DNA from: Schmidtea polychroa
Taxonomy: Eukaryota
Assembly (NCBI GenBank): GCA_044892525.1
Contig: CM097885.1
Coordinates: 149,234,001-149,297,879, forward strand
Direction: 5' to 3'
DNA: 63,879 nt
Shown here: one piece after another, positions 31,460-59,899 of the stretch
Position numbering within the stretch: position 1 is the first letter of the stretch
Layout of the letters: every line of letters starts with the position of its first letter
The notes under the pieces: model-generated
Told to the model about the DNA's origin: nothing
What the model saw: the letters and a program-made list of their open reading frames with translations, nothing else
Database searches by the model: none
Made by a program: the position numbers and the translations under genes

Positions 31460-32246
31460 ATTCCATTTAGTTTTAGTTAATTTTTTTGTTCTTTTTAATT
31501 TTTTTAATTTTCATTTAGTTTTTAAGTTTTGAATAATAATTTTTATTGAGTTAAATTGTTATGCTTATTGATTATGAATGATAGTTACCGTGGATTTCAG
31601 ATCCAGCATACCATGGGTTGCTCAGACTGGTGGGTATGCTAGTTTTTCAATCACGCAACTGATTTGGGCCGTAATGCGGAAGTTTCTCCACAGGTCCGTC
31701 GCTGTAAGTAACAAGTAAAACATAGGTTAAAACTAAAAATACAACCAGATCCCTGTCAAATGTTTTGAAGAATAATTTGAATATTATGGAAATTATGAAG
31801 CAACATTTATTAACTTAGAAATAAAGGCGGATCCTTGCTCAAATCTTTTTGAAGGATAAGGTAAATATTCACAAATATTACAGAAAACACAGAGCAACAT
31901 CTATCAACAGAAAAATAAAGAGGAATCCCTGCGCAAAACCCTTGAAGATAACATTAGAAAACATCCAGAAATGAAGATATGACGATAATCTAACACAAGA
32001 ATAGATAATGATTAATGACATAAGACCTTTTATCGGCAGTCCAGAACCTGAAAATGAAAATAGCATGAGAAGTTTGTTTTAGTAATAGAACTCACCTGCT
32101 CATGGATTTGTGTACAGTACTAATATGGTCGTCGCCATGGGTACACAGATGGTATAAGCACAATAGTCATGAAGGCGTTTAGGAAGAAGTCGATTCAACT
32201 AACCTTAACACCTTTAAAAATAAAATGACACACATAAGCGCCAAAA
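31460..32246 (+). mobile_element. Older diverged LTR (3' portion) of the same family as the 21-kb element
   Basis: Colinear with 33285-34075: CTCAGACTGGTGGGTATGCT, three GATCCCTGCTCAAA-like repeats, TAAGACCTT.TATCGGCAGTC and CTCACCTGCTCAT. Ends CCAAAA instead of CCAACA. Confidence 0.88.
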
Positions 32247-33069
32247 ATAATCAAATCCAAGTTTTGCCGTGGATCGATGCCAATGACGGATGACACACAC
32301 TAGTAGAACTTGTCCAGAACGCTCAAGAATTAGAGCAAACCAAAGAAAAATTAAAAGAATATATGCAACTAACCATGGGAGTTGTTATAATATATAATGT
32401 GTTAAAGTTAATGTTGTTGTTTCTAAATATTATACTTTAAATAAATAATGTTTTTAAAATATAGACTCAGACTAAAATTTATTAGCACATTCATAATTTC
32501 CTCATTTTATAACATTTTCAACGACATGATCTTGTTGGGCTGAAGCCGAGAACTGAGAGTTTGTTTTAATCGATCGAAAATACCTAACACAAAAACCGCA
32601 AAGTTGAAAAATTTATGACCAAGGTTTAATTTAAAATAAATGAAATAAATTACATCACATATTAAGAACCAATAAACCCCGTATAATAGAATAAGAGATA
32701 AATAAATTTAACAAAAAATTCAACACTTAAAAATTTAAATAGAAAAATAATAAAATATAAAATAGAATTAGTTGAAAATTATTTAAACAATATAAAAATT
32801 AAATCGTCAAAAATAATAAAATTAGTTAGCATTATATAAATTGTAAAGTTTATAGAATTAAATGGTTATTTAACTTATTAAATTTAAAGAATAAAAATGT
32901 TTAAATTAATAAAAATTAATATAACTCAAATTATTTAAATTATAAAATTTATAAAATTAAAATTAATAAAAATTAAATAAGAAATTAATTAAATTTATTG
33001 AATTAAAACAAATAAACAATTGCACACACTCATGCAGGTATGCAAGACTAATTAAAAATTTCTCGCACT

Positions 33070-33121
33070 CTGATTGGATAGAGTGGCAGCAAATGCATGA
33101 AAAATCAGTATAAATACTGAT
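33070..33121 (+). promoter_or_regulatory. LTR promoter: inverted CCAAT box and TATA box
   Basis: CTGATTGG at 33070-33077, TATAAATA at 33109-33116, Inr-like TCATTT at ~33130, AATAAA at ~33272 (implies short R and long U5). Same elements at +19,705 in the 3' LTR. Confidence 0.7.
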
Positions 33122-33829
33122 CACAAATTCATTTAAGACTACTTTTTCTCTAACATCAAAATTTAGTTGTAGCCAGTGAAGCTCTCAGTTTTCGATTTTA
33201 TGCCCACGTGGATTTGGTAATTTATTTTTTATTGTTGTAGTAATTTTATGAGATGATTAAATTTAATATGCAATAAAATTTTTAGTTAAATTTTCTTTTG
33301 TTATTTTCTTTTAATTGTTTAATTTCATTTAGTTGCAGATATTAAATAATAATTTTTATTGTGTTCAATTTTTATACTAACTGATTACGAACGTTAGTAC
33401 CGCTGAATTGAGATTCAGCATATCATGGTTTGAGGTACCTTCGGGATGCTCAGACTGGTGGGTATGCTGGTTTTTCAATCGCGCAGCTGGATTGGGCCGG
33501 AATGTGGGGGCTTCCTCACGGGTCCTATCGCTGGAAGTACTGTGGTCAAATGTAGGTTAGGACTGAGAATACAGGCAGATCCCTGCTCAAATTTTTTGAA
33601 GTATAACGTAAATATTATGGGAAGCGTGGATTAACTTGAAAATAAGGGCCAATCCCTGCTCAAATTTTTCAAAGGATAATTTAGATATTGTAGGAAGTGT
33701 AGAACAATAATTATTAGCTGGAAAATAAGGGCGGATCCCTGCACAAAATTTTATAAGAGAACAATTAGAAATACCCGTAATTGAGGACCAACAACGATTC
33801 AAAAATAGCATACACAGTGAATAATGACG

Positions 33830-33999
33830 TAAGACCTTCTATCGGCAGTCTAGAACCCGAAAAGAAAATACAATGGGGAGTAGTTTTAGTAATAGAGCTC
33901 ACCTGCTCATTGTTTTTTTCGCCTTTGTGTACAGTACCAACATGGTCGTCACCATGGGTACACAAATGGTTTAAATTTTAATAGTCATGGAGGTGCTTA
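33830..33999 (+). ncRNA. Putative conserved structured RNA domain in U5 (pseudoknot plus two branched hairpins); copies at 53535-53704, 32021-32181, 58605-58774
   Basis: Stems supported by compensatory changes among three diverged versions (detailed in findings). Function unknown. Confidence 0.6.
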
Positions 34000-34082
34000 G
34001 GAAAGAGTCGAACGATTATGATTACCCCTAACGCATTTTAAAATCTAAAAATGATACACCCCTAAGTAACCAACATGATTTT

Positions 34083-34100
34083 TGGGGGCTCAGCCGGGAT
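34083..34100 (+). promoter_or_regulatory. Primer-binding site, tRNA-Pro type
   Basis: TGGGGGCTCAGCCGGGAT, 7 nt after the LTR; 16/18 match to the standard tRNA-Pro complement TGGGGGCTCGTCCGGGAT. Confidence 0.85.
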
Positions 34101-36260
34101 CTAGGTTTATAAATTGTTTTTGGCAGAAAAGCATTAATAAATAATAAATTTTCAAACTCAAAAATGGCAATTATTCGGAAAATTCAACTTCAACATCAAA
34201 ATGAGAAATTGTGCTAAAAGGAAAATATTAAATTAAGAAAATTAGAAATTAAAATTAATTAAAGAAAAAACTGTTTTAGAAATAAAATTTAAATATGGTA
34301 AACGGAAAATTAGTTAGAACGAAAATTGGGAAACTTAAGTTAGGAATTATGCTAGAAATAAAATTAATTTAGGCAAAAGAACCAAACGAACACATAAAAT
34401 TAAAATGAATAAAAATAAAAATTATTTTTGTTTCGGGAAATAGAATTGCTTGGATTAGAAAAATTTTCTAATTAACAACTACAAAAAATAAAATTTTGGA
34501 AAAATTTAGGTTAATAAATAAAAAACAGGATCGGAAAAACCACGACCAAATAATCATAATAAATTCGTAATGATAAAGTCGAAATTTGATGCTGCCGAAA
34601 AACCATGCTCAAATAACAATAGGAAAATTATAATTTAAAATTTATAAAAATAAGTTAATCCAAAAAAAAAATTAATTGGGGTAAAAGGGAATCAAAAGTA
34701 AAAATTATTTTAGTAAGGAATTAAATAGGTTGGAATAAAATTTAATTTAACTATAAAAATAGAAATTTAAAAATAAAAATTAACTTAAATAAAATCACAA
34801 AAAGTAATATAAGCATCAAAAGACAAAACTAAATTCGAAAAAATTTATTTAAAAACAAATAGGTAAAATATATAGAACTTACCTGTCAACGAAACAATCC
34901 AAAATAAATCAAGAGCATGGTATGAAATTTCATAAAAGCACCTAATAACAAATTCTAAAATACTTAGTTAATTAAAAAATTGAAATTGAAAAATAGGTAG
35001 AATATATTTACCTTATAGCGAAAATAATCTGAGAATAAAATATGATCAATTTCCTAGAAATTCACAAGAATCTGGAATATAAGGATGATGATTGCGAATA
35101 AAATTTAAAACCATGAATAAATTTTTACTCAAAAGTTAGCAAATCTTACCTAAAAAATCCATAAAATGAAACCAAAAAATTCTGGTAGAATAATCGATAA
35201 AAGAAAAAATATAGCAACCAGAACACTTGAATAATTACCAACACAATGTTATTAAGTAGTTGCCTGAGAATTGTGTGCATGATGATTTGTTTTGAAGTGT
35301 TGACAGGGAAGTGTTTTTTGAAGTGTTTGAAGTGTTTCTGGTTTCAACTCGCGTGTGTGAGTCAGATTGGCCTTGTGACGGATAAATGCAGTTGGATTGA
35401 TTGTGAAGTGTCTGAAATCGGTGTAGGCGTGTTTATGGTTCCGGAACAACTATAAAAATTAATTGTAACTACGCTTCCAGTGATAGCTTGTGGGTATTTA
35501 GCGACTGGTGTGGTGGTACATAGTCAATGAATTTTGCTCAGTGCTTTTAAGTCTACCGCTGGCATTGTTGAATGATGTAAAATCCAGATTAAAAACTGAA
35601 AATATTTGCCGACAACACCAGCTGTCCGTTGTCGGCTTGAGGTAATATCTGAAAAATGTGTATGTGTGTGTAGTAATAAAATATTCCGGATTTTACCACT
35701 CAAGCTCTACAACAGTCTAGATTGAATACATTGTATAGTATGCGTGCCGGCGGCATGGCATGGCATGTGTGCAGGTATTGATTTTCTACGTGCATGAAAA
35801 GCGGCCAATCAGAAACGAGGTGTGTAACAATTATTCATTTCTTGATTTTAGATTTCATTTCTTGTAGATTTGGATTTTTGCTGTAGTGTTCAGATGAAGT
35901 TGAAATTTTATGAGATTTATAAAACGAAAATGGAATTTGTTTGTATTGAAGTTAACATGTCTATCAATTGGAATAATGATTCGAATATTTACTTTTGAAA
36001 ATGATGCTGGAAATTTGATTAGTTCTTCGATTCATTGTAATTTCTCTCGGTTTGTTTCGTTGTTTTTGTCGATGTTGAATAAAACTTTGAGCGACTATCA
36101 AATCTTACATGCAAAACCATCAATGAATATCCATTTGAATTCTTCCCACATCAAATCCATCAATGCGTGGATAGTCAGTTTATTTTTCTGATATTCTGGA
36201 TTTAGGTATAGTTAGTGAAGGTATATAATCTGGGTAAGGTACTCATTTCCCCAAAGCACA

Positions 36261-39200
36261 TTTAATTATCACAAATGAGACATTCATTTAGCTTTGCCAA
36301 ATAGGCTTTGTTTTGGATTTAGTTAATTTTAAGATTTTTGTAAAAAAAATAATGAATAAAGAAGTAAGATATTTATTTATTTGTTCTGATGTGCATTGAA
36401 TTCTTCACGGTTTATCTAAAATATCAAGAATTTAGGGAAGAATCTTTAATATGATTGTTTATGTGATCGAGTGATGGCCGAGTGCCGGTTGGTGGGTCGG
36501 CTTCGGTTGCGCCGTGGGTTTGTTCCGGTGGATTGTTTCTTTATTTTCAAGAGAGCGGCTTGGAATGGTTATATATACTTTTCATTGATTTTGTGGACTT
36601 TACTAATTGAATTAATTTACTAATTAATTTACTAATTAATGTTTTATAAGTATTTTAAAATTCAGTTTTCAATAAAATTATGTATGGCTTTCTATTTTCG
36701 ATTTAATTAGTTAGGATGAGACGGAGGGTTGTCAGATTTGCATGCATGGAAAATGATCATTAATTATGTTATTATGGCATTTTGTACCTGTATATAAATT
36801 TATATGCACTTAAATAATTATTGTTAGGCAGTAATGGGATAATCAATGTATTGCTTTTGTGGGTACAAATAGAGATATTCTTCGTTGCTTAAATTGCATT
36901 GGAATGATGAATTAGTAGTCTGTTTTGAGTTTTGTTGTGGAATGATTGTTCTGACTCGTGATAATATTTATGTTATAAAACTATGAAATGTGAATTTTTG
37001 AACAAATACTGCCAAATTGGTGAATGAATGTAGTGATGGTCTTCGTGGTATGGAAACTTCTTGGAAGGTACACTGATAGATGAAGAATTAATAGTATGAA
37101 TGATTTAATTATCACAAATGAGACATTCATTTAGCTTTGCCAAATAGGCTTTGTTTTGGATTTAGTTAATTTTAAGATTTTTGTAAAAAAAATAATGAAT
37201 AAAGAAGTAAGATATTTATTTATTTGTTCTGATGTGCATTGAATTCTTCACGGTTTATCTAAAATATCAAGAATTTAGGGAAGAATCTTTAATATGATTG
37301 TTTATGTGATCGAGTGATGGCCGAGTGCCGGTTGGTGGGTCGGCTTCGGTTGCGCCGTGGGTTTGTTCCGGTGGATTGTTTCTTTATTTTCAAGAGAGCG
37401 GCTTGGAATGGTTATATATACTTTTCATTGATTTTGTGGACTTTACTAATTGAATTAATTTACTAATTAATTTACTAATTAATGTTTTATAAGTATTTTA
37501 AAATTCAGTTTTCAATAAAATTATGTATGGCTTTCTATTTTCGATTTAATTAGTTAGGATGAGACGGAGGGTTGTCAGATTTGCATGCATGGAAAATGAT
37601 CATTAATTATGTTATTATGGCATTTTGTACCTGTATATAAATTTATATGCACTTAAATAATTATTGTTAGGCAGTAATGGGATAATCAATGTATTGCTTT
37701 TGTGGGTACAAATAGAGATATTCTTCGTTGCTTAAATTGCATTGGAATGATGAATTAGTAGTCTGTTTTGAGTTTTGTTGTGGAATGATTGTTCTGACTC
37801 GTGATAATATTTATGTTATAAAACTATGAAATGTGAATTTTTGAACAAATACTGCCAAATTGGTGAATGAATGTAGTGATGGTCTTCGTGGTATGGAAAC
37901 TTCTTGGAAGGTACACTGATAGATGAAGAATTAATAGTATGAATGATTTAATTATCACAAATGAGACATTCATTTAGCTTTGCCAAATAGGCTTTGTTTT
38001 GGATTTAGTTAATTTTAAGATTTTTGTAAAAAAAATAATGAATAAAGAAGTAAGATATTTATTTATTTGTTCTGATGTGCATTGAATTCTTCACGGTTTA
38101 TCTAAAATATCAAGAATTTAGGGAAGAATCTTTAATATGATTGTTTATGTGATCGAGTGATGGCCGAGTGCCGGTTGGTGGGTCGGCTTCGGTTGCGCCG
38201 TGGGTTTGTTCCGGTGGATTGTTTCTTTATTTTCAAGAGAGCGGCTTGGAATGGTTATATATACTTTTCATTGATTTTGTGGACTTTACTAATTGAATTA
38301 ATTTACTAATTAATTTACTAATTAATGTTTTATAAGTATTTTAAAATTCAGTTTTCAATAAAATTATGTATGGCTTTCTATTTTCGATTTAATTAGTTAG
38401 GATGAGACGGAGGGTTGTCAGATTTGCATGCATGGAAAATGATCATTAATTATGTTATTATGGCATTTTGTACCTGTATATAAATTTATATGCACTTAAA
38501 TAATTATTGTTAGGCAGTAATGGGATAATCAATGTATTGCTTTTGTGGGTACAAATAGAGATATTCTTCGTTGCTTAAATTGCATTGGAATGATGAATTA
38601 GTAGTCTGTTTTGAGTTTTGTTGTGGAATGATTGTTCTGACTCGTGATAATATTTATGTTATAAAACTATGAAATGTGAATTTTTGAACAAATACTGCCA
38701 AATTGGTGAATGAATGTAGTGATGGTCTTCGTGGTATGGAAACTTCTTGGAAGGTACACTGATAGATGAAGAATTAATAGTATGAATGATTTAATTATCA
38801 CAAATGAGACATTCATTTAGCTTTGCCAAATAGGCTTTGTTTTGGATTTAGTTAATTTTAAGATTTTTGTAAAAAAAATAATGAATAAAGAAGTAAGATA
38901 TTTATTTATTTGTTCTGATGTGCATTGAATTCTTCACGGTTTATCTAAAATATCAAGAATTTAGGGAAGAATCTTTAATATGATTGTTTATGTGATCGAG
39001 TGATGGCCGAGTGCCGGTTGGTGGGTCGGCTTCGGTTGCGCCGTGGGTTTGTTCCGGTGGATTGTTTCTTTATTTTCAAGAGAGCGGCTTGGAATGGTTA
39101 TATATACTTTTCATTGATTTTGTGGACTTTACTAATTGAATTAATTTACTAATTAATGTTTTATAAGTATTTTAAAATTCAGTTTTCAATAAAATTATGT

Positions 39201-42200
39201 ATGGCTTTCTATTTTCGATTTAATTAGTTAGGATGAGACGGAGGGTTGTCAGATTTGCATGCATGGAAAATGATCATTAATTATGTTATTATGGCATTTT
39301 GTACCTGTATATAAATTTATATGCACTTAAATAATTATTGTTAGGCAGTAATGGGATAATCAATGTATTGCTTTTGTGGGTACAAATAGAGATATTCTTC
39401 GTTGCTTAAATTGCATTGGAATGATGAATTAGTAGTCTGTTTTGAGTTTTGTTGTGGAATGATTGTTCTGACTCGTGATAATATTTATGTTATAAAACTA
39501 TGAAATGTGAATTTTTGAACAAATACTGCCAAATTGGTGAATGAATGTAGTGATGGTCTTCGTGGTATGGAAACTTCTTGGAAGGTACACTGATAGATGA
39601 AGAATTAATAGTATGAATGATTTAATTATCACAAATGAGACATTCATTTAGCTTTGCCAAATAGGCTTTGTTTTGGATTTAGTTAATTTTAAGATTTTTG
39701 TAAAAAAAATAATGAATAAAGAAGTAAGATATTTATTTATTTGTTCTGATGTGCATTGAATTCTTCACGGTTTATCTAAAATATCAAGAATTTAGGGAAG
39801 AATCTTTAATATGATTGTTTATGTGATCGAGTGATGGCCGAGTGCCGGTTGGTGGGTCGGCTTCGGTTGCGCCGTGGGTTTGTTCCGGTGGATTGTTTCT
39901 TTATTTTCAAGAGAGCGGCTTGGAATGGTTATATATACTTTTCATTGATTTTGTGGACTTTACTAATTGAATTAATTTACTAATTAATTTACTAATTAAT
40001 GTTTTATAAGTATTTTAAAATTCAGTTTTCAATAAAATTATGTATGGCTTTCTATTTTCGATTTAATTAGTTAGGATGAGACGGAGGGTTGTCAGATTTG
40101 CATGCATGGAAAATGATCATTAATTATGTTATTATGGCATTTTGTACCTGTATATAAATTTATATGCACTTAAATAATTATTGTTAGGCAGTAATGGGAT
40201 AATCAATGTATTGCTTTTGTGGGTACAAATAGAGATATTCTTCGTTGCTTAAATTGCATTGGAATGATGAATTAGTAGTCTGTTTTGAGTTTTGTTGTGG
40301 AATGATTGTTCTGACTCGTGATAATATTTATGTTATAAAACTATGAAATGTGAATTTTTGAACAAATACTGCCAAATTGGTGAATGAATGTAGTGATGGT
40401 CTTCGTGGTATGGAAACTTCTTGGAAGGTACACTGATAGATGAAGAATTAATAGTATGAATGATTTAATTATCACAAATGAGACATTCATTTAGCTTTGC
40501 CAAATAAGCTTTGTTTTGGATTTAGTTAATTTTAAGATTTTTGTAAAAAAAATAATGAATAAAGAAGTAAGATATTTATTTATTTGTTCTGATGTGCATT
40601 GAATTCTTCACGGTTTATCTAAAATATCAAGAATTTAGGGAAGAATCTTTAATATGATTGTTTATGTGATCGAGTGATGGCCGAGTGCCGGTTGGTGGGT
40701 CGGCTTCGGTTGCGCCGTGGGTTTGTTCCGGTGGATTGTTTCTTTATTTTCAAGAGAGCGGCTTGGAATGGTTATATATACTTTTCATTGATTTTGTGGA
40801 CTTTACTAATTGAATTAATTTACTAATTAATTTACTAATTAATGTTTTATAAGTATTTTAAAATTCAGTTTTCAATAAAATTATGTATGGCTTTCTATTT
40901 TCGATTTAATTAGTTAGGATGAGACGGAGGGTTGTCAGATTTGCATGCATGGAAAATGATCATTAATTATGTTATTATGGCATTTTGTACCTGTATATAA
41001 ATTTATATGCACTTAAATAATTATTGTTAGGCAGTAATGGGATAATCAATGTATTGCTTTTGTGGGTACAAATAGAGATATTCTTCGTTGCTTAAATTGC
41101 ATTGGAATGATGAATTAGTAGTCTGTTTTGAGTTTTGTTGTGGAATGATTGTTCTGACTCGTGATAATATTTATGTTATAAAACTATGAAATGTGAATTT
41201 TTGAACAAATACTGCCAAATTGGTGAATGAATGTAGTGATGGTCTTCGTGGTATGGAAACTTCTTGGAAGGTACACTGATAGATGAAGAATTAATAGTAT
41301 GAATGATTTAATTATCACAAATGAGACATTCATTTAGCTTTGCCAAATAGGCTTTGTTTTGGATTTAGTTAATTTTAAGATTTTTGTAAAAAAAATAATG
41401 AATAAAGAAGTAAGATATTTATTTATTTGTTCTGATGTGCATTGAATTCTTCACGGTTTATCTAAAATATCAAGAATTTAGGGAAGAATCTTTAATATGA
41501 TTGTTTATGTGATCGAGTGATGGCCGAGTGCCGGTTGGTGGGTCGGCTTCGGTTGCGCCGTGGGTTTGTTCCGGTGGATTGTTTCTTTATTTTCAAGAGA
41601 GCGGCTTGGAATGGTTATATATACTTTTCATTGATTTTGTGGACTTTACTAATTGAATTAATTTACTAATTAATGTTTTATAAGTATTTTAAAATTCAGT
41701 TTTCAATAAAATTATGTATGGCTTTCTATTTTCGATTTAATTAGTTAGGATGAGACGGAGGGTTGTCAGATTTGCATGCATGGAAAATGATCATTAATTA
41801 TGTTATTATGGCATTTTGTACCTGTATATAAATTTATATGCACTTAAATAATTATTGTTAGGCAGTAATGGGATAATCAATGTATTGCTTTTGTGGGTAC
41901 AAATAGAGATATTCTTCGTTGCTTAAATTGCATTGGAATGATGAATTAGTAGTCTGTTTTGAGTTTTGTTGTGGAATGATTGTTCTGACTCGTGATAATA
42001 TTTATGTTATAAAACTATGAAATGTGAATTTTTGAACAAATACTGCCAAATTGGTGAATGAATGTAGTGATGGTCTTCGTGGTATGGAAACTTCTTGGAA
42101 GGTACACTGATAGATGAAGAATTAATAGTATGAATGATTTAATTATCACAAATGAGACATTCATTTAGCTTTGCCAAATAGGCTTTGTTTTGGATTTAGT

Positions 42201-43825
42201 TAATTTTAAGATTTTTGTAAAAAAAATAATGAATAAAGAAGTAAGATATTTATTTATTTGTTCTGATGTGCATTGAATTCTTCACGGTTTATCTAAAATA
42301 TCAAGAATTTAGGGAAGAATCTTTAATATGATTGTTTATGTGATCGAGTGATGGCCGAGTGCCGGTTGGTGGGTCGGCTTCGGTTGCGCCGTGGGTTTGT
42401 TCCGGTGGATTGTTTCTTTATTTTCAAGAGAGCGGCTTGGAATGGTTATATATACTTTTCATTGATTTTGTGGACTTTACTAATTGAATTAATTTACTAA
42501 TTAATTTACTAATTAATGTTTTATAAGTATTTTAAAATTCAGTTTTCAATAAAATTATGTATGGCTTTCTATTTTCGATTTAATTAGTTAGGATGAGACG
42601 GAGGGTTGTCAGATTTGCATGCATGGAAAATGATCATTAATTATGTTATTATGGCATTTTGTACCTGTATATAAATTTATATGCACTTAAATAATTATTG
42701 TTAGGCAGTAATGGGATAATCAATGTATTGCTTTTGTGGGTACAAATAGAGATATTCTTCGTTGCTTAAATTGCATTGGAATGATGAATTAGTAGTCTGT
42801 TTTGAGTTTTGTTGTGGAATGATTGTTCTGACTCGTGATAATATTTATGTTATAAAACTATGAAATGTGAATTTTTGAACAAATACTGCCAAATTGGTGA
42901 ATGAATGTAGTGATGGTCTTCGTGGTATGGAAACTTCTTGGAAGGTACACTGATAGATGAAGAATTAATAGTATGAATGATTTAATTATCACAAATGAGA
43001 CATTCATTTAGCTTTGCCAAATAAGCTTTGTTTTGGATTTAGTTAATTTTAAGATTTTTGTAAAAAAAATAATGAATAAAGAAGTAAGATATTTATTTAT
43101 TTGTTCTGATGTGCATTGAATTCTTCACGGTTTATCTAAAATATCAAGAATTTAGGGAAGAATCTTTAATATGATTGTTTATGTGATCGAGTGATGGCCG
43201 AGTGCCGGTTGGTGGGTCGGCTTCGGTTGCGCCGTGGGTTTGTTCCGGTGGATTGTTTCTTTATTTTCAAGAGAGCGGCTTGGAATGGTTATATGTACTT
43301 TTCATTGATTTTGTGGACTTTACTAATTGAATTAATTTACTAATTAATTTACTAATTAATGTTTTATAAGTATTTTAAAATTCAGTTTTCAATAAAATTA
43401 TGTATGGCTTTCTATTTTCGATTTAATTAGTTAGGATGAGACGGAGGGTTGTCAGATTTGCATGCATGGAAAATGATCATTAATTATGTTATTATGGCAT
43501 TTTGTACCTGTATATAAATTTATATGCACTTAAATAATTATTGTTAGGCAGTAATGGGATAATCAATGTATTGCTTTTGTGGGTACAAATAGAGATATTC
43601 TTCGTTGCTTAAATTGCATTGGAATGATGAATTAGTAGTCTGTTTTGAGTTTTGTTGTGGAATGATTGTTCTGACTCGTGATAATATTTATGTTATAAAA
43701 CTATGAAATGTGAATTTTTGAACAAATACTGCCAAATTGGTGAATGAATGTAGTGATGGTCTTCGTGGTATGGAAACTTCTTGGAAGGTACACTGATAGA
43801 TGAAGAATTAATAGTATGAATGATT
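36261..43825. repeat. Tandem array of nine 843/831-bp units
   Basis: Units start at 36261, 37104, 37947, 38790, 39621, 40464, 41307, 42138 and 42981, and are near-identical. Confidence 0.98.
36465..36547 (+). ncRNA. tRNA(Leu/Ser)-like GC-rich module with A-box, degenerate B-box and T4 (one per array unit)
   Basis: GATGGCCGAGTG matches the tRNA-Leu D-arm start. CTTCGG then CGTGGGTT resembles the variable arm/T-arm. The B-box GGTTTGTTCC is degenerate and there is no full cloverleaf. Confidence 0.4.
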
Positions 43826-46800: not shown

Positions 46801-47577
46801 AAATTTTGAAAACGTAAAATATACGAAATGAGAAACATTATGACGGGGAAATCAGTGAGAGGTAACATAAAAAATCAAAGCTGAGGAAAATATACAAATA
46901 CGGAAGCGATAAATTACAAAATTGAGCAGGGATGTTTCGTAAATAAATCATTAACGAATAGAAGGGTAACGAATAAAATGGATAAACTAATATTAACAAA
47001 TAATGCGAGAGGGATCTGCCTGAGGAAATAGTGGACATATTAACAAGAAACAAGTCAACCGAAGCGGTGAGAGTAAAAGCGATAGCAATAAAACGTTAAC
47101 TGGATAAGAGACGTGGGTATATTTAGAATAATGAAGAAGGACCAAGAGTAATCGAGATAAGTTGATTAAGAGCACTGCGTATAAACGAGAATAAAGTATT
47201 ACGAAAATTGAGAGTAAATGAATAAGAAAAATTTTTTTTGCTGTTAGGATTTAGGAAATCCACAACCTATGAGCTACGCTCAGCGTAGTACGGATAAGGC
47301 CCAGGAAAGTACCAACTGTACTGACGAAAGATGTGGAACAGGGCCCATCGCATATACTGGAACATCTCTGCGTGTGACTGATCACCACACGATCGGAGAT
47401 CGACCAGTGCGAGTGTTTCACCTCCAGAGTCAGGAGAGTGGGGAAAACCTGGAAGAGTAGTAAAAAAGAAGCATGCAGGAGAAATAAAAGGAAGACCAAG
47501 TAACTGGAAAAAGACAAAGCGAAGTAAAGAGAAACAATTAGAGCTTAAAGATTAAATTCATAAGATAACCAGTAGAC

Positions 47578-48060
47578 GAATAATAGATGCGAATAATAGA
47601 TGCGAATAATAGATGCGAATAATAGATGCGAATAATAGATGCGAATAATAGATGCGAATAATAGATGCGAATAATAGATGCGAATAATAGATGCGAATAA
47701 TAGATGCGAATAATAGATGCGAATAATAGATGCGAATAATAGATGCGAATAATAGATGCGAATAATAGATGTGAATAATAGATGCGAATCCTAGATGCGA
47801 ATAATAGATGCGAATAATAGATGCGAATAATAGATGCGAATAATAGATGCGAATAATAGATGCGAATAATAGATGCGAATAATAGATGCGAATAATAGAT
47901 GCGAATAATAGATGCGAATACTAGATGCGAATAATAGATGCGAATAATAGATGCGAATAATAGATGCGAATAATAGATGCGAATAATAGATGCAAATAAT
48001 AGATGCGAATAATAAATGTGAATAATAGATGCGAATAATAGATGCGAATAATAGATACGA
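47578..48060. repeat. 13-bp satellite (GAATAATAGATGC)n, ~37 copies
   Basis: Read directly; a few single-base variants; degenerate 13-mer-like tail to ~48200. Confidence 0.98.
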
Positions 48061-48643
48061 ATATAAATGAGAATAATGGCTACGAATAGAAACGGAAATA
48101 ACAGACGTGAATATAGACGAGAATGTAAAAGGAAAGATAAACGAGAATATAGATGAGTACCTGGAAGAAACATAGACGAGAATATAAACGAGAATACGGC
48201 CGAAGTCATTGACGGATATATAACTGAAAATAAATAAGATTGTGAAGGAAAAAGACGAAAAATGAATTGAAAATAGACAACCATGTAGGAGAATAGATGA
48301 GGATATAGAATGGATAATGGAGAATCGAGTTAAGAATAATTTGAGGACCAATGTGTAAACAAAAATAACGACGAAATGAATATTAAGATATGCCGGTACC
48401 CAAAGAAACCAAAGTAAAAATATTGCAATTACACTATATAATATATATATTATAATTTATAAATATAATAAACGATAGGGAGAAGTGATATTTTTCTATT
48501 CAGGTAAATCAATCAATCAAGCCAATAGCCAAGTATCAGCAATCAAATAGAAGTTATTGTCAAATAATTAAGCCAAGTTCAGAAATATTGAACCAATAAC
48601 AAAGCATACCAGATCAAAACAGCTAATCATAGAACCAAGTTTA

Positions 48644-51169
48644 TTGAAAGAAGAAGAATTAAAAGTTGCAAAGAAAGGAAGACGAACTATTAAACCCACG
48701 CAAGCACAAGAAATCGAAAAGCAAAATCAAAAAGACATCTCAAAGACCAAAAGTCGATCCATAAAAGGAAGCAGTGAAAAGGATTTCGAAAACAATAAGC
48801 CAAGAAGCGTAATACGCGTATCAGAACCTCAGGCAGGAAAAACTCTATCTGAAAACAGAAATAATAAAAGTGACATAAACCTAATAAAAGAAAAGGCAAA
48901 CGGAAAAGGAATACAATTTGAGATGGTAGATACAGCAGCCCAAATAGAAGCGATCAACAAGAAACTCAGTGAAATGGAGATACTCAATTTCCAGGGAAAA
49001 TATAATGGCGAAAAATACGATGGAAAACCGAACAAACTATCAAACTTCGTCCAACACTTCGAATCTTATTGCGATGCTCTAAAATGGACACCCGAAATGA
49101 TAGTGAGAAGACTCCCACTATATCTAGCAGACGACGCGTTTAATTGGTACGTTGGAATGAAAGAGTGTACAATCCCACTAAAAACCTGGAAAGAAATTAA
49201 GGAAGCTCTGATAAAAACATTTGGTGAACCAAAAGATCCACAATACAAATTTCTAGAATTTTTCAATCGAGGACAAGCAGTGAATGAATCAAATATACTT
49301 TACGCAAGGGCACTAAGACGTCTAGCCAAACCGCTATTCAGTGAAAAGGATATGGAAACACAACTAGTAACCCAATTTGTAAAAGGATTGCGACGAGATG
49401 ACATTAAAGGTGTAGTCGGATGCAAAATCTGCAAGACGCTGAACGAAGCAGTAGAGGCAGCGAATGTAAGCGAAATGTACACCAAAGTAACACAACCACC
49501 AAGTATGAGGCATACCGCAGATAATCAACCCCAACACCACAAACAGTGGAGTCATAACAACAATGATCGAAGAAACGAAAATGACAACAAAAGCAAGAGG
49601 TTGAATAATAGAAACATTGGAAAGTTTTGTAATAACTGCAAGAGACAAGGACACTGGCTCGATGAATGTCATGGGCAAAGAAGATGTTAGAATTGCGATC
49701 AGAAAGGACATACCGCAGTAAGATGTGGGGTATCCAAAAAATGTTTCTCGTGCGGACAAGGAGACCATCTAGCAGTTGCATGTACGAATAAAAGAAACCA
49801 ACAATGGAGTGACAATAGGGATACGTCAGCAAAGCAACTAGCTGAAATACAAAATCAAATAACAATTCTCACAGGACTGTGCAGTAACATGATCGATTAT
49901 CAGTTTCAAGCGGAAGGAAAACAACAATCAAGAATAAATGTATTACAATGTGTGGGAGGCACATTACAAATTCAAAATATCCGAACAAAACAACAACGAG
50001 AATGGAATACCTTACAGATCGCGGAAGCACGAGAAGCGGAAGAAAGATGGAGTAAACGAAAAGAACCTCAGGCAAGAAGAGAAGAAAAATATTGGAGATC
50101 GAGAAAGGAAGAACTTTTAAAAATGGATATAATGAGACTAACCACCAACGACAACCAGAAGGAAAAGATAGAAAGAATGTGGGAAAGAGAACAAGAAAGA
50201 GTAATACAAATCAATATGATGGGAATGATAACGAGCAACGAAATAGATTTACAAAAAATTCCGGACTCAAGGATCGAAAGCGAAATAATTGAAAAACTGG
50301 AACAGGTAATATTAGACCATCAAAACATCAAACCATTTGAGGACAATCAGAGAGATTATACCGGCATCGATAGTCAGGTTGGAATTGCAGTAATCCCGGA
50401 AAAGCGCGAATCGGAGAATGGCGAAAATCACGAAAAACGAAATAATGAAAAAACGCAAGAAAAGTACCATGACATAAACACGTTAAAAACTGAAAGCGAG
50501 TGCGAACCAGATATCGAATGGGACGCAAGTACAAACAATTACGGGAACGAATACCAACCACAAGGACATAATGGGCGCTATCGGTTCTTCGATAAGACGC
50601 ATGGGAATTGTCAGAAAAATGAGCACGGAAAAAATAAATGTCGCCGCATAAAAAGGTGTTACGAATGTAAAAGAACTGGACATTTGGTCAATAACTGTCC
50701 GAATGGGACCAATCCAGTGAGAGATCAGTCACGAGAATACGCCACAGAACAAAACAATAAAAACTATGTCGAAAACAGAATTTGTCAGCCAGGGATACGA
50801 AAACATCAATCTCCAATGTTAATAAAACAACAGTCGACAAATGTACAGAGACGGACAAATGACGTGAAGGAACAGGTGAAACCCAACGCATACGAGGAAT
50901 TGAGGAGACAATGTGTGGAACAGTGCAGGTTAATAATGGAACTGGTTGTAAAAGAAACGAGACAGGATGAATTGATAATGATATGGAGAAAAGTTGCAGA
51001 AAATAAAACAAGAGAAAATGAGGTACTTAAGACAACGATACTCCGACTAAAAGAAGAAGCAAGGTCAGCCGAATTAAGAATCAATGAAATAACGAGTAAT
51101 CGAAAAAAAATGCAAAGATGGGGCAGAAGAGACACAAATGGTGACGGCCAAGGAAAAGAAGAAGGGTAG
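48644..51169 (+). CDS. gag: Retrotransposon Gag (capsid-like domain plus four CCHC knuckles and coiled-coil tail) with one in-frame TAG at 49688-49690
   Basis: YDG..FVQHFE..LPLYLADDAFNWY..TWKEIKEALIKTF..QFVKGL (Ty3 gag-like). Knuckles CNNCKRQGHWLDEC, C*NCDQKGHTAVRC, CFSCGQGDHLAVAC and CYECKRTGHLVNNC. ORFs 48644-49690 and 49889-51169 are the same frame. First ATG is 48923 (48644 is TTG). Confidence 0.9.
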
Positions 51170-52203
51170 TCCAAAGGATGTGGCGGAAATTAAAGAGGAA
51201 GTGTAGATGAAAATAGTAAAAAGGAAGTGAACATATGTAAAAATTGATGTATAAATAGCAAATTAAATGTACTAGATGTATAGGTATAAATTGATGTATA
51301 ATGTGGCAAAAGATCGATGTATAAATAGAAATGGATCAAGTAATCAGTTGGAAAAATACTAAATTTGAACCCTTACAATGGTAAAGGAGAACAGAGGCTC
51401 AAATGAGAAGAAAGAATATAAATCCAGAAGAAAGATAAAAGTACAAACCCAGAAAGAATGAGTTAAACGAATATCGAAAAGTAATATCTAATTTGGAACC
51501 CAAAACTAAGGAGAACGGTAAAAGATCCTGATAAATGAGACGAAAGTCACAGCCCCAGTGACATTGGAAAGTTAGTCAAATCAAGCTAACTAAGACGCAA
51601 ATCGAAGATAATTTGAGTTACCCATTAGAGAAAGAAAATTCCTTAATAAGAGCAATACCGTAAACAAAAACCACCGAGAAAAACCAAAAGAAAAATCTAT
51701 GTGTCAAATCACCCAGTTAAACAAAAGTCCCGAAGACCCTTGAGCAAGGTCTGTTAACTACCATCAAATGATCCAGAAAACCGGAATCCCAGCCTAAAAA
51801 TTCAAAGAGAATCAGGGAACAACAGTCAAACCCTGATAGAGAAAATCCTATGATCTTCAGTAAATATTACGAGCTAACTATGAAAATCAACAGCAGGGAC
51901 CAAACATGCCTACACAACCCAGACGAAAGATCGAAAACCGAGCCCAGAAACGAGAGAAACAACCAACTGATGAATTTATCCAGAAATAAAACTTTTGCAT
52001 ATGACTCGTACTTGAGTTTGGACACTGTATTAGTATGTATATGTATTATGACCAGTCACTGTATGTGGCAACTGCTTGAATTTGAGCTTAGACCTTTTTC
52101 TGCTAATTGAATTCTAACATGTCTTAAGCTATTATAGTATGTTTATAGGTTAATGGGAATGTAATAGACTATGACCTGGGAAATTCATATGTCTAACAGA
52201 ATT

Positions 52204-52237
52204 GCGGGACGCAATTTTAACGGGTCCCGGAGTGATT
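52204..52237 (+). promoter_or_regulatory. Atypical PPT region before the 3' LTR
   Basis: GCGGGACGCAATTTTAACGGGTCCCGGAGTGATT resembles the GGGAC..TTTTAAGGGGGG pattern of gypsy PPT regions but is pyrimidine-interrupted and can form a CGGGAC/GTCCCG hairpin. Confidence 0.45.
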
Positions 52238-53780
52238 TGTTGGGCTGAAGCCGAGAACTGAGAGTTTGTTTTAATCGATCGAAAATACCTAACACAAAAA
52301 CCGCAAAGTTGAAAAATTTATGACCAAGGTTTAATTTAAAATAAATGAAATAAATTACATCACATATTAAGAACCAATAAACCCCGTATAATAGAATAAG
52401 AGATAAATAAATTTAACAAAAAATTCAACACTTAAAAATTTAAATAGAAAAATAATAAAATATAAAATAGAATTAGTTGAAAATTATTTAAACAATATAA
52501 AAATTAAATCGTCAAAAATAATAAAATTAGTTAGCATTATATAAATTGTAAAGTTTATAGAATTAAATGGTTATTTAACTTATTAAATTTAAAGAATAAA
52601 AATGTTTAAATTAATAAAAATTAATATAACTCAAATTATTTAAATTATAAAATTTATAAAATTAAAATTAATAAAAATTAAATAAGAAATTAATTAAATT
52701 TATTGAATTAAAACAAATAAACAATTGCACACACTCATGCAGGTATGCAAGACTAATTAAAAATTTCTCGCACTCTGATTGGATAGAGTGGCAGCAAATG
52801 CATGAAAAATCAGTATAAATACTGATCACAAATTCATTTAAGACTACTTTTTCTCTAACATCAAAATTTAGTTGTAGCCAGTGAAGCTCTCAGTTTTCGA
52901 TTTTATGCCCACGTGGATTTGGTAATTTATTTTTTATTGTTGTAGTAATTTTATGAGATGATTAAATTTAATATGCAATAAAATTTTTAGTTAAATTTTC
53001 TTTTGTTATTTTCTTTTAATTGTTTAATTTCATTTAGTTGCAGATATTAAATAATAATTTTTATTGTGTTCAATTTTTATACTAACTGATTACGAACGTT
53101 AGTACCGCTGAATTGAGATTCAGCATATCATGGTTTGAGGTACCTTCGGGATGCTCAGACTGGTGGGTATGCTGGTTTTTCAATCGCGCAGCTGGATTGG
53201 GCCGGAATGTGGGGGCTTCCTCACGGGTCCTATCGCTGGAAGTACTGTGGTCAAATGTAGGTTAGGACTGAGAATACAGGCAGATCCCTGCTCAAATTTT
53301 TTGAAGTATAACGTAAATATTATGGGAAGCGTGGATTAACTTGAAAATAAGGGCCAATCCCTGCTCAAATTTTTCAAAGGATAATTTAGATATTGTAGGA
53401 AGTGTAGAACAATAATTATTAGCTGGAAAATAAGGGCGGATCCCTGCACAAAATTTTATAAGAGAACAATTAGAAATACCCGTAATTGAGGACCAACAAC
53501 GATTCAAAAATAGCATACACAGTGAATAATGACGTAAGACCTTCTATCGGCAGTCTAGAACCCGAAAAGAAAATACAATGGGGAGTAGTTTTAGTAATAG
53601 AGCTCACCTGCTCATTGTTTTTTTCGCCTTTGTGTACAGTACCAACATGGTCGTCACCATGGGTACACAAATGGTTTAAATTTTAATAGTCATGGAGGTG
53701 CTTAGGAAAGAGTCGAACGATTATGATTACCCCTAACGCATTTTAAAATCTAAAAATGATACACCCCTAAGTAACCAACA
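52238..53780 (+). repeat. 3' LTR
   Basis: 1,543 bp, same termini and sequence as the 5' LTR; followed by TSD ATCT. Confidence 0.96.
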
Positions 53781-57287: not shown

Positions 57288-58085
57288 ATGTCGGAGCCAA
57301 ATTTACCTATTCGCGTTCTAAAACCATGTTTTTCATGGTCGGACAAGAATATGGATATTAAGAAACTACATGAGCATATAGGGGTTTTCAAAAAGCGTAT
57401 CGAAACACTAGAGCACACGTGGTTCTCCCCGCCACAAATGAAAGAAGAGAAGATGAAGATCCTCGGATTGGAACACTGCTGTGACAGTCTCTTAGAAGAA
57501 AGTCGTTGTCAGCGACTGACGATAAAGGCACAATCTGAAGCCCTGCACAAAATTTATTTCGAGTCTGAGTTACATAAACGGGTGAGAGAATAACCGATGA
57601 AAGACGGATCAAATATCTTCCCTCTTCATCATCGAATGGACGAATTCAAAACACCCGCGTCAGCAAGTTGCTCTAGACACGGACTTGAGTTTCCGGAAAT
57701 CGTCACGCCCATTTTACGTGGGGCAGCGAAGGAACCGATTCAATCTGTACCTACGCTTCACAAATCTTATAGTGGCATTTCTTCCACGAACGCCGAGAAA
57801 TCAGTCAACACGATTCCAAAAAAACTCAAACGGCCGCCGAGAGCCGAACGAACTGCAAAGCGTGGAGGAAAGATGGAGACATTAGAAGCGACGTTAATCG
57901 CGGCTCAGACGACTATCGCCAAAATAAATAGCAATCCTCAGTCAACGGTACTGCCTGATATCTTCAGAGTGATTCCCTCAACAACTGTAGTACCACCAAC
58001 GAATCCTTGGCTGCAGGTTGATGAGGATGCCCTGATGACCGAGGGAGAGATGGTAGAAACATCCTCATGTGTTGATCAGAAATAA
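57288..58085 (+). pseudogene. Unknown ~265-codon frame with one internal TAA, just upstream of an LTR (probable accessory ORF of an LTR element)
   Basis: ORFs 57288-57593 and 57597-58085 are in the same frame and GC-richer than the flanks. They are followed by a purine patch GGGCAGGGAA and TGTTGAG at 58132. Confidence 0.45.
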
Positions 58086-58131: not shown

Positions 58132-58821
58132 TGTTGAGACATTAGAGAGAAATGATTTGATTTCGTGTTAATTAAATTAACTATGTGTCTTAATTTGTAT
58201 ATATCAATATATTTGTGATGGTATTTGACTCTTAATGGTCGTTAGTATGCTCAAACTGGCTTATTTTGATTGTTATGTCTTTCTATTTCGGTTATATTAA
58301 AGCAATATAATAACTTTAAAGAATGCTGAGGAAGTGTATGATAGTGAATATGGAAAATTGTCTGTGTAGAATGAGGAAACATCTTGTCTCATTTCCCAGG
58401 CTTCGATTTAGTACCGTTTCGAGTATCATATTAGTAATCTAGCATACCATTTGCGTATTTTGACGATACAATTATTCTCTAGGAAGTTCATTAAAGTGAT
58501 CGATTACGTCAACCAGGGAATGAGTATACCTGCTTACGGGAACAAATGGAAGAGAGATAAACACCGTCTCCTTAAACCAGAGATGTGAGAACGATGATTA
58601 GGGATAAGACCTTCTATCGGCACACTAGAACCCGAACCGTGAAGACTGCGGAGAGTAGTCCTAACATAGGGGCTCACCTGTCCACAGATTCCAACCTACG
58701 TATACATTTCCAACATGAACCATCTTCATGAGTATACGTACGGGAGATAAATCGTAAGTCATGTAGGGTACTTAGAGAAAGAAAACTGAGTATATTAATG
58801 ATCACCTTAGGTAACCCAACA
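58132..58821 (+). mobile_element. Distantly related LTR (~690 bp) sharing the U5 structured domain
   Basis: TGTTGAG..GTAACCCAACA; contains TAAGACCTTCTATCGGCA..CTAGAACCCGAA, GCTCACCTG and AGTCATG..GG.ACTTAG. The 5' boundary is inferred. Confidence 0.7.
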
Positions 58822-59230: not shown

Positions 59231-59899
59231 TTTTTTCTTATAATATAAGTCTTCCAATTTTATTATCAAATCTTCGATTTTTTCTTGATTTTTTTTATTT
59301 TGAAAGTTCTCTATAGTTATAATTTATTTTCACTATTATTACTATATAGTTTTGTTATTTTTTAAATATACTATACATATAAAAATTATTAACAATATAT
59401 TAAAGTTCTTAATTACAATTTCCAAAAATAATAATATGACGTTATGCTCTACATATGAGACCGATGCCACGTGTAACGGTTGCATAAAGTTGATAAAATT
59501 ATTTGATTTCGGGTTTAATTAATTAGGATCTCGTTGCTACCAGTCAAACTTAAACGACCAAGACATTATCGCATGAAAATCACAATTCAACAATTATGTA
59601 AATTTAAAAATACTATAATTAATAGTTTTTATGTCTAAATTAGAAAAAAGATTATTGAGAAATTAATTATATTAATGAATTAAACAAGAAACACATTCAG
59701 TAAAAATCGAAATGTTATTAAAATTATTTATATGTTTAAATGCATTACTTATTTCTTACACGTAAAGTTAATTTAAAGCGCAATTGTCTGTGGTATCTTG
59801 ATTTGTATTTTCTTATTTCGATTGGTTCGGCATTAATTTAATATATCAATTAACTTAAATCTTTTATAATTCTTTTTATATATTTTAGAATTTATTTTC

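What the first reader, a model, noticed from the sequence alone, without database searches (positions are those of the whole stretch)
33830..33999. Candidate novel structured RNA: pseudoknotted U5 domain with compensatory changes across three LTR versions
Versions are A (here and 53535), B (32021-32181) and C (58605-58774). The closing stem is TAAG-ACC / GGT-(bulge)-CTTA. The hairpin TTCTA-[TCGGCA...]-TAGAA has a loop TCGG that can pair with the adjacent CCGA (CTGA in B, a G-U pair), giving an H-type pseudoknot. A second arm has outer stems ACAATG/CATTGT (A), CATGAG/CTCATG (B), CTGCGGA/TCCACAG (C) and inner hairpins TTTTA-gtaa-TAGAG (A), TTTTA-gtaa-TAGAA (B), TCCTA-aca-TAGGG (C). A third arm is GTGTAC..CATGG/CCATG..GTACAC (A) versus GTATAC..CATGA/TCATG..GTATAC (C). 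Unpaired CTCACCTG and AGTCATG are invariant. Conserved joiners plus a pseudoknot are what a ribozyme, IRES or packaging core looks like. It does not match the hammerhead, HDV, twister, pistol or group I cores as I know them.
Basis: partly seen in the sequence, partly recalled or inferred. Interest (0 to 1): 0.82.

Follow-up and report, generated by a model that had tools for sequence, protein, structure and literature searches.

The report
Folded RNA at retrotransposon LTR end
Many families of giant retrovirus-like jumping genes in this animal genome share a roughly 250-letter RNA fold, backed by paired mutations and matching no catalogued RNA family, just ahead of the tRNA primer site; it likely marks the element's genome for packaging and helps load the primer, while the pseudoknot first proposed is not supported.

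Summary
It lies at the 3' end (likely U5) of a 1.54-kb LTR of a gag-only element, and of 26-kb Burro-like gypsy elements whose LTRs are otherwise almost unalignable. The core motif occurs 4,503 times in the genome (control 8). The TCGG/CCGA pseudoknot and the TAAG-ACC closing stem fail: the 3' strand pairs with the LTR end instead, so the domain spans 33826-34071, next to an exact 18-nt tRNA-Pro primer site. There is no Rfam match, and HDV, twister-sister-like and hammerhead features are not met. Best reading (0.55, inferred): a 5'-leader replication domain for packaging and primer loading, whose first hairpin gates a splice donor. Support is indirect: a PAS-like 7-mer (p about 0.06, absent in one group) and a conserved acceptor before gag. 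No reads tested splicing or cleavage. A new ribozyme is not excluded (0.12).

The parts
32533..34075 (+). 5' LTR of the gag-only element (family A); TG..CA ends, 4-bp target duplication ATCT
52238..53780 (+). 3' LTR, 99.9% identical; holds the second A copy of the domain (offset +19705)
33826..34071 (+). whole structured RNA domain (PA module, P2, P3, linker, P4)
33826..33850 (+).
   Evidence: 3 of 3 pairs with significant shared changes; predicted by RNAalifold; not predicted by single-sequence folding (0.14 bp)
33829..33834 (+). 5' splice-donor-like GTAAGA; inferred exon|intron border 33828|33829
   Evidence: columns 91-100% conserved at +1..+5, A or T at +6 (anchored on this motif, so inflated); use as a donor not shown
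33837..33855 (+). possible 4-bp pairing of loop TTCT (33837-40) with AGAA (33852-55); would form a nested pseudoknot with PA
   Evidence: 82-96% paired, no covariation; inferred
33853..33859 (+). GAACCCG, complementary to nt 49-55 (T arm) of host tRNA-Pro; PAS-like candidate
   Evidence: 0.91 of group AB, 0.54 of CD, not in EF; shuffle p 0.057 and 0.070
33871..33912 (+). P2 arm: covarying outer stem, invariant GAGTAG/CTCACCTG core with small internal loop, covarying hairpin 33884-97
   Evidence: core pattern 4,503 matches
33922..33969 (+). P3 arm: covarying outer stem, 8-nt/1-nt internal loop with invariant CCAA (33937-40, complementary to the UUGG anticodon loop of the primer tRNA), covarying inner hairpin
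33984..33988 (+). conserved purine-T-pyrimidine-purine-T linker; partner unresolved
33992..34071 (+). P4: 33992-34001 pairs with the LTR end 34061-71; its loop holds TACCCCTA (34023-30), complementary to the tRNA-Pro D loop
34076..34082 (+). 7-nt spacer TGATTTT between LTR end and primer site, shared by families A, D, F
34083..34100 (+). primer binding site, exact 18-nt complement of host tRNA-Pro(UGG) 3' end
33272..33277 (+). candidate poly(A) signal followed by a U-rich tract (TATA-like box at 33109); places the domain in U5 by inference
   Evidence: not mapped with reads
48480..48503 (+). candidate 3' splice acceptor; the next ATG, 419 nt on, is the gag start (48923)
48923..51169 (+). gag (Retrotrans_gag, zinc knuckle), interrupted by an in-frame stop in this copy; no pol in the element
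32017..32246 (+). version B: decayed copy of a related LTR end; nearest genomic relatives 82-87% identical
58601..58821 (+). version C: decayed copy at the end of an LTR related to family D (shares the LTR-borne ORF); nearest relatives 76-87%

Best explanation
This is a conserved, covarying four-part RNA domain at the 3' end of the LTR of Burro-like gypsy retroelements, directly ahead of a tRNA-Pro primer site, and it likely works as the 5'-leader replication signal of the genomic RNA, predicted to be bound by the element's Gag for packaging and to help load the tRNA primer, while its first hairpin would gate a splice donor so that only unspliced RNA keeps the signal. SHOWN: helices PA, P2, P3 and P4; plus-strand RNA as the folding molecule; fixed place before the primer site; retention in both autonomous-type and gag-only elements. 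INFERRED: (1) in full-length RNA, PA pairs the three bases before GUAAG and so hinders U1 binding; (2) when PA is open, splicing to the acceptor before gag removes the domain and the primer site and yields an ATG-free gag leader; (3) after the tRNA 3' end anneals, the freed T arm, D arm, 5' end or anticodon loop pairs with boxes in the domain (GAACCCG; the P4 loop; CCAA), as PAS and the A-rich loop do in HIV-1 and the boxes do in Ty1; (4) the invariant internal loops are Gag/nucleocapsid or tertiary-docking sites; (5) P4 plays the part of the retroviral U5 terminal stem beside the primer site.
For: Covariation: 19 of 31 tested pairs in PA, P2a, P2b, P3a, P3b share more changes on the tree than matched column pairs (p<0.05 each, uncorrected). 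On a MAFFT alignment not fitted to the structure, 91.3% of cells pair against 76.4% in shuffles (0 of 500), and RNAalifold recovers PA, P2 and P3. P4: own-copy duplex -13.0/-16.9/-17.4 kcal/mol against -10.5/-10.0/-8.3 across groups. G-U against A-C cells 98:26 points to plus-strand RNA. The core lies 177-199 nt before an identical primer site in families A, D and F. D and F are 26-27 kb elements with gag, fusion protein, PR-RT-RH-IN, ankyrin and MATH domains, the Burro architecture (PMC6431247 passages). A-D and D-F LTRs give no BLAST hit at E<1e-3, yet all keep the domain; retention in a gag-only element is what a cis-acting replication signal predicts (established knowledge). GAACCCG complements tRNA nt 49-55, the 5' T arm that the HIV-1 PAS binds (PMC11251516 passages). 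In 13 of 13 loci with the canonical gag start, 530-732 nt before it hold no ATG (7.6-9.6 expected), and 12 of 13 have a conserved acceptor inside that stretch (about two independent lineages).
Against: No function was measured. tRNA complementarity is borderline without a positional prior (p 0.057 AB, 0.070 CD, 0.36 EF, sum 0.059), and group EF, which includes 26-kb elements, lacks GAACCCG. The CCAA-anticodon match is only 4 nt and could not be tested by covariation, because no relative with another primer was found (13 hits: 8 mutated Pro sites, 5 others). Rare variants at donor +3 are G and T equally (2% each), so they do not favour spliceosomal use; the conserved acceptor could serve another donor or spliced-leader trans-splicing. 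No conserved palindromic loop for dimer initiation was seen (by eye). In retroviruses packaging signals lie mainly downstream of the primer site (recalled), not in U5. About 49 near-invariant positions is dense for a packaging signal and could mean catalysis.
Confidence: 0.55

Rival explanations
1. The domain is mainly an RNA-processing switch: the GUAAG donor binds U1 to drive gag splicing or to suppress the upstream poly(A) site, and the folded arms decide its access differently at the two LTRs, as in foamy viruses. Packaging and priming would be secondary.
For: The best-conserved 5' feature is a donor consensus whose upstream three bases covary in PA. A poly(A)-like hexamer with a U-rich tract lies about 160-175 nt (D, F) or 550 nt (A) upstream. 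Foamy viruses use an LTR-internal donor and RNA structure in this way (PMC3694450 abstract). Conserved acceptor and ATG-free gag leader.
Against: It does not explain the invariant P2 and P3 loops, P4 or the fixed distance to the primer site. The donor is downstream of the hexamer and identical in both LTRs. No junction was observed.
Confidence: 0.2
2. The domain is a self-cleaving or branching ribozyme of a new class that trims read-through LTR transcripts or cuts unit-length RNA, as hammerheads do in retrozyme LTRs.
For: Dense invariant non-helical nucleotides. A 3-bp covarying helix that thermodynamics does not predict implies tertiary packing. The PA module has an HDV-like nested topology (recalled). 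The P2 core shares 5 of 6 and 3 of 5 bases with the twister-sister-like loop (PMC11620745 passages).
Against: No Rfam hit at gathering score in the window, nor on the motif at E<=5 in 20 loci. The twister-sister-like loop differs at three positions, including a change reported as almost inactive, and its unpaired G is paired here by the covarying register. No conserved HDV-type P2, G-U cleavage pair or catalytic C. A cut between R and the primer site would break the template for minus-strand strong-stop DNA (established mechanism).
Confidence: 0.12
3. The domain is a translation or nuclear-export element (IRES or CTE-like) for the long unspliced RNA.
For: Invariant internal loops on long stems resemble protein-binding export elements (recalled). 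Giant elements have a 159-161 aa RING ORF a few hundred bases after the primer site (4 of 4 loci printed).
Against: Gag starts 3-15 kb away behind 52-111 ATGs. The window's family-A element shows no ORF of 150 aa or more after its primer site yet keeps the domain. No sequence match to a catalogued element.
Confidence: 0.1
4. The stems are a by-product of shared ancestry or a DNA-level signal, with no RNA function.
For: All copies come from one genome and related elements; the copies were collected with motif anchors, which inflates conservation; B and C alone fold no better than shuffles.
Against: Shared changes on the tree exceed matched column pairs; slid controls fall to 31-44% paired; strand-biased G-U pairs; flanking LTR sequence is unalignable.
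Confidence: 0.03

Closest known systems
Retroviral U5/PBS segment (HIV-1 PAS, A-rich loop and three-way junction; MLV U5-PBS with tRNA-Pro); PMC11181671 and PMC11251516, passages read
   Same: Structured RNA just 5' of an 18-nt primer site; candidate contacts with the T arm and the anticodon loop of the primer; overlap with splicing control.
   Different: About 250 nt, four modules, no sequence or fold match; the donor-like site is upstream of the primer site and inside the LTR; the PAS-like box lies about 225 nt from the primer site and is missing in one group.
Ty1 5' TIPIRT domain with pseudoknot and tRNA boxes; Ty3 bipartite PBS; PMC4974528, passages read
   Same: Compact 5' RNA domain of an LTR retrotransposon carrying Gag-binding and extended primer contacts with the T and D arms.
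   Different: The Ty1 signals lie in R and in the gag frame around and 3' of the primer site and use tRNA-iMet; here the domain is non-coding, in the LTR, with tRNA-Pro.
Foamy virus major splice donor in the LTR; PMC3694450, abstract read
   Same: LTR-internal donor upstream of the primer site, with access set by RNA structure.
   Different: The foamy donor is in R upstream of the poly(A) signal; here the donor-like site is downstream of the candidate signal and its use is unproven.
Burro/GYPSM1 giant gypsy elements of planarians; PMC6431247 and PMC8532177, passages read
   Same: Carrier elements of 26-27 kb with gag, env-like fusion protein between gag and pol, ankyrin and MATH domains.
   Different: The passages read describe proteins and expression, not an LTR RNA structure; family A is a gag-only derivative with a 1.54-kb LTR.
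Retrozymes (hammerheads in LTRs) and twister-sister-like ribozymes; PMC4918200 search listing only, PMC11620745 passages
   Same: Conserved structured RNA in the LTR of non-autonomous elements; partial likeness of the P2 core to the twister-sister-like loop.
   Different: No hammerhead core; catalytic-loop bases and register differ; the elements are 9-27 kb, not small circular RNAs.

Membership tests
any Rfam 15 family | match to a covariance model | tested here: not met
   0 hits at gathering score in the window; 1 hit at E<=5 in 20 loci, off the motif
   61-81% paired, 0 of 3 significant; 66-71%
HDV-like ribozyme | nested double pseudoknot with loop L3 pairing just 3' of P1 | tested here: inconclusive
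   PA, CC/GG and TTCT/RGAA give a similar topology, the last without covariation; HDV layout recalled
HDV-like ribozyme | 6-7 bp P1 with G-U cleavage pair, P2 to the 3' end, catalytic C in J4/2 | tested here: not met
   PA is 2-3 bp with variable outer pair; closing pairs 21-60%; no conserved C before the linker; features recalled
twister-sister / TS-like ribozyme | loop L1 GCUCAA opposite GCUAG with G7 outside the helix | tested here: not met
   5 of 6 and 3 of 5 bases match; the G7 equivalent is paired in the covarying register; loop read off the numbering in PMC11620745 passages
hammerhead / retrozyme | CUGANGA and GAAA core around three stems | tested here: not met
   no such conserved columns; no Rfam hit; core recalled
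self-cleaving ribozyme of any class | site-specific self-cleavage | not testable with these tools
   needs a bench assay or raw reads; only contigs were available
retroelement primer-loading (PBS/PAS) domain | 18-nt primer site complementary to a host tRNA next to a U5 terminal stem | tested here: met
retroelement primer-loading (PBS/PAS) domain | upstream box complementary to the 5' T arm of the primer in all lineages | tested here: inconclusive
   0.91 AB, 0.54 CD, absent in EF; p 0.06-0.07
retroelement packaging signal | kept in cis by non-autonomous elements, at the 5' end of genomic RNA | tested here: met
   gag-only family A with at least 40 identical copies of the stretch and 26-kb elements both keep it; 5' position inferred from the poly(A)-like signal
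retroelement packaging signal | selective Gag binding, dimerisation and encapsidation | not testable with these tools
   no assay; no conserved loop palindrome seen by eye
major splice donor | donor consensus plus conserved downstream acceptor | tested here: met
major splice donor | observed splice junction | tested here: inconclusive
   contigs only, no joint listed at the site; the acceptor side was not examined with reads
Burro-like giant gypsy (carrier elements D, F) | over 25 kb; gag, fusion protein, PR-RT-RH-IN, ankyrin, MATH | tested here: met
   against PMC6431247 passages; BIR and BCL2 domains not reported by Pfam in the ORFs scanned

The most novel reading that the evidence does not exclude
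The invariant core (donor-like GUAAG clamped in a nested pseudoknot, the GAGUAG/CUCACCUG helix that resembles a U2/branch-site duplex, and the CCAA loop) folds into a catalytic RNA of a new class: a self-cleaving or self-branching ribozyme built into the LTRs of giant env-bearing retroelements, which would process the element's RNA without the spliceosome.
Probability: 0.12. Interest if true: 0.92.

Novelty: new variant of a known kind. Interest (0 to 1): 0.58.

Why it matters
Packaging and primer-loading signals are well described for retroviruses and yeast Ty elements, but I found none described for these giant animal gypsy elements. Here thousands of natural variants give a covariation-backed fold with about 49 near-invariant positions, shared by autonomous-type and gag-only families whose LTRs are otherwise unalignable. 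That makes two questions directly testable on a 250-nt RNA: how a 26-kb element with a multi-kilobase leader tells genomic from messenger RNA, and how it loads tRNA-Pro. The motif is also a sensitive marker for this element lineage. If the RNA cleaves itself, it would be a new ribozyme class.

Tried and rejected
Protein homologue search with gag: 472 candidates, none at E<=0.001, so no other species' LTRs could be fetched. Pattern scans of metagenome and viral contigs: 0 and 0. Sequencing runs: no RNA holder on record, contigs only; this is no evidence on expression. Laying four contig sets on the leader of a family-A copy listed no joint or loose end at the donor among the rows shown, one contig of a guessed-RNA run crosses it unspliced, and the tables were cut; uninformative. 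The acceptor side was not examined with reads. Genomic copies lacking the acceptor G before the gag exon: 0; expected either way, since a spliced RNA has no primer site. Relatives with another primer tRNA: none among 13 hits. An exon-1 ATG in a fixed phase with the donor: not conserved; a conserved open frame after the acceptor: not conserved. Intramolecular U1 mimicry (CUCACCUG pairing with GUAAG): rejected because an A-C mismatch at +3 is fixed in about 96%. Linker pairing with AU(C)GG: 73-94% paired, 0 of 4 covarying. No helix of 5 bp or more links the invariant segments. The T-loop-like look of the TTCTA loop and the Sm-site-like look of the spacer are recalled resemblances, untested; TGATT also precedes the 3' LTR, which offers an integration-end explanation for the spacer. 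Earlier scan notes: none by sequence or words. The PAS paper PMC1370257 was not held. Grohme et al. 2018 and its supplements were not read and might describe LTR features.

Full report
Setting. The finding lies in the last 250 nt of a 1,543-bp LTR (32533-34075; twin 52238-53780, 99.9% identical; target duplication ATCT). The element encodes only Gag (Retrotrans_gag, zinc knuckle). The own genome is 781 Mb and the window about 30% G+C. At least 40 places are identical to version A over 231 nt. B and C are decayed single copies whose nearest relatives are 76-87% identical.

A lineage-wide motif. A pattern for the arm-2 core with a free 14-nt hairpin gives 4,503 matches against 8 for the reversed control. 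Sub-patterns that avoid A, B and C gave 65 and 1,875 matches and brought in further families, here D, E and F. Two LTR pairs 26-27 kb apart were read: they hold gag, a Monjiviricetes-type fusion protein, protease, RT, RNase H, integrase, ankyrin and MATH/TRAF domains. This is the architecture given for planarian Burro/GYPSM1 elements (PMC6431247, passages); an earlier scan note on this genome names the same kind (e1-7879936). A-D and D-F LTRs give no BLAST hit at E<1e-3, and A-F only two short ones, one of them in this motif. I found no copy outside this genome.

Alignment. From 230 loci I extracted 193 distinct instances. 143 of 193 could be anchored; 50 were dropped (27 without the 5' module, 16 without the arm-3 anchor, 7 other). 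The effective number at 85% identity is 56. Anchoring and dropping inflate conservation: 49 of 182 columns are at least 90% identical. A separate MAFFT alignment of 45 rows, one of them mis-addressed, served as an unfitted check.

What covaries. The top mutual-information pairs are complementary and form helices. Counting changes that fall on the same branches, against column pairs of matched variability, 19 of 31 pairs reach p<0.05 uncorrected: PA 3 of 3, P2a 7 of 10, P2b 2 of 5, P3a 5 of 8, P3b 2 of 5; several of the rest are nearly invariant. On the MAFFT alignment my structure has 91.3% of cells paired against 76.4% in shuffles (0 of 500) and 31-44% when slid; the structure was derived from these sequences, so this leans in its favour. 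RNAalifold independently returns PA, P2 and P3. G-U cells outnumber A-C cells 98 to 26, which marks the plus-strand RNA.

The TCGG/CCGA pseudoknot forms in 61-81% of weighted copies with no covariation and is missing from groups D (no C in the loop) and E/F (no CCGA). The closing stem pairs in 21-60%. Once the LTR end is included, the same 3' strand pairs with it in 57 of 74 copies with an exact end, and with the 5' end in 4 of 74.

Corrected anatomy (A coordinates). PA, 33826-28 with 33848-50, encloses GTAAGA, an inner CC/GG hairpin and a loop whose first four bases may pair with 33852-55. Single-sequence folding does not predict PA (0.14 bp on average), so it probably depends on tertiary or protein contacts (inference). 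P2 (33871-33912) has an invariant core whose register cannot be fixed by covariation. P3 (33922-69) has an 8-by-1 internal loop with invariant CCAA. A 5-nt linker follows, then P4 (33992-34001 with 34061-71), the LTR end, a 7-nt spacer and the primer site (34083-34100). No helix of 5 bp or more joins the invariant segments, so the tertiary fold is open.

Primer link. The primer site is identical in A, D and F and lies 177-199 nt after the core (21 genuine sites among 25 rows listed for 237 instances). It is the exact complement of the host tRNA-Pro(UGG) 3' end. GAACCCG complements tRNA nt 49-55, the 5' T arm that the HIV-1 primer activation signal binds; HIV-1 also pairs a U5 loop with the anticodon (PMC11251516 and PMC11181671, passages), and Ty1 pairs boxes with the T and D arms (PMC4974528, passages). 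Here the 7-mer is present in 0.91 of group AB and 0.54 of CD but not in EF; against 2,000 shuffled tRNAs p is 0.057, 0.070 and, summed over the three groups, 0.059. AB and EF carry a D-arm-like complement in the last 95 nt (18 of 19, 13 of 18; CD 4 of 35), CD often a match to the tRNA 5' end (0.53). CCAA complements the anticodon loop, but it is 4 nt, and no relative with another primer exists here to test it. This is suggestive only.

Splicing link. GTAAG plus A or T is a textbook donor (recalled), and PA pairs the three bases that U1 would need upstream. Between primer site and gag lie 52-111 ATGs. Of 15 loci examined, 13 showed the canonical gag start; all 13 have 530-732 ATG-free bases before it (7.6-9.6 expected; part of the stretch is in-frame open by definition), and 12 have a conserved acceptor within it. 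These are about two independent lineages. Splicing from the LTR donor would drop the domain and the primer site from gag mRNA, the usual retroviral way to keep messenger RNA out of particles. Foamy viruses also gate an LTR-internal donor by structure (PMC3694450, abstract). No junction was observed, and the available runs were contigs with no RNA holder on record, so this stays inferred; trans-splicing onto the acceptor is an alternative.

Ribozyme? Rfam gives nothing in the window at gathering score, and nothing on the motif at E<=5 in 20 loci. The PA module recalls HDV topology but lacks its long P1, P2 and catalytic C. The P2 core shares 5 of 6 and 3 of 5 bases with the twister-sister-like loop, but carries a change reported as almost inactive and pairs the G that is free there (PMC11620745, passages). 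Cleavage between R and the primer site would break strong-stop synthesis. Ribozymes do occur in retrozyme LTRs (search listing) and in virus 5' UTRs (PMC13725137, abstract), and the density of invariant bases keeps a new class open at about 0.12.

Novelty and verdict. Searches for planarian LTR ribozymes or LTR RNA structure listed no paper on this motif; the library lacks most subscription papers, and Grohme et al. 2018 with its supplements was not read. The fold is new, but its place and likely role are those of retroelement 5'-leader signals, so I file it as a new variant of a known kind. Observation partly confirmed; interpretation partly supported; best explanation 0.55; interest 0.58.

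Noticed in passing
window about 33408-33533: A 126-nt block of the A (and B) LTR is 82% identical to a stretch about 3.3 kb from the end of the family F LTR, although the rest is unalignable: a second conserved LTR element.
   Followed up: no
L236 6059-6817; L239 5771-6556; window 57594-58085: LTRs of the giant elements (4.2 kb) carry an ORF behind a strong splice acceptor; no Pfam match for the window's homologue.
   Followed up: partly
L234 1376-1852; L237 1223-1705: A 159-161 aa ORF ending in a RING-like Cys/His pattern lies between primer site and gag in 4 of 4 giant elements printed.
   Followed up: no
window 34076-34082 and 52195-52237: TGATT follows the 5' LTR and also precedes the 3' LTR in A, D and F, after a conserved short hairpin and with no purine-rich tract; the unintegrated DNA ends would be mutually complementary, an unusual end design.
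   Followed up: partly
G000:C1 about 130.90-130.95 Mb and beyond; L240: Host tRNA-Pro(UGG) genes form a tandem array with a 475-bp unit; 2,170 pattern matches genome-wide.
   Followed up: partly
L231 7158-7203: A 44-nt skip in two guessed-RNA contig sets, starting GT on the element's sense strand; possibly a small intron in the family A leader, where contig depth peaks.
   Followed up: no
window 36260-43825 and 47577-48155: The leader of this copy is expanded by about nine 843-bp tandem units and a 52-bp repeat array; other copies are 9-13 kb from LTR to LTR.
   Followed up: partly
L234/L237 and L246-L256: Families D and F have nearly identical Gag N-termini but unalignable LTRs, and several different internal regions follow identical A LTRs, which suggests LTR swapping.
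   Followed up: no
window 25297-26262, 15889-16524, 59870-60346: MULE transposase fragment, GIY-YIG (Penelope-like) fragment and a host Thioredoxin_12 exon.
   Followed up: no
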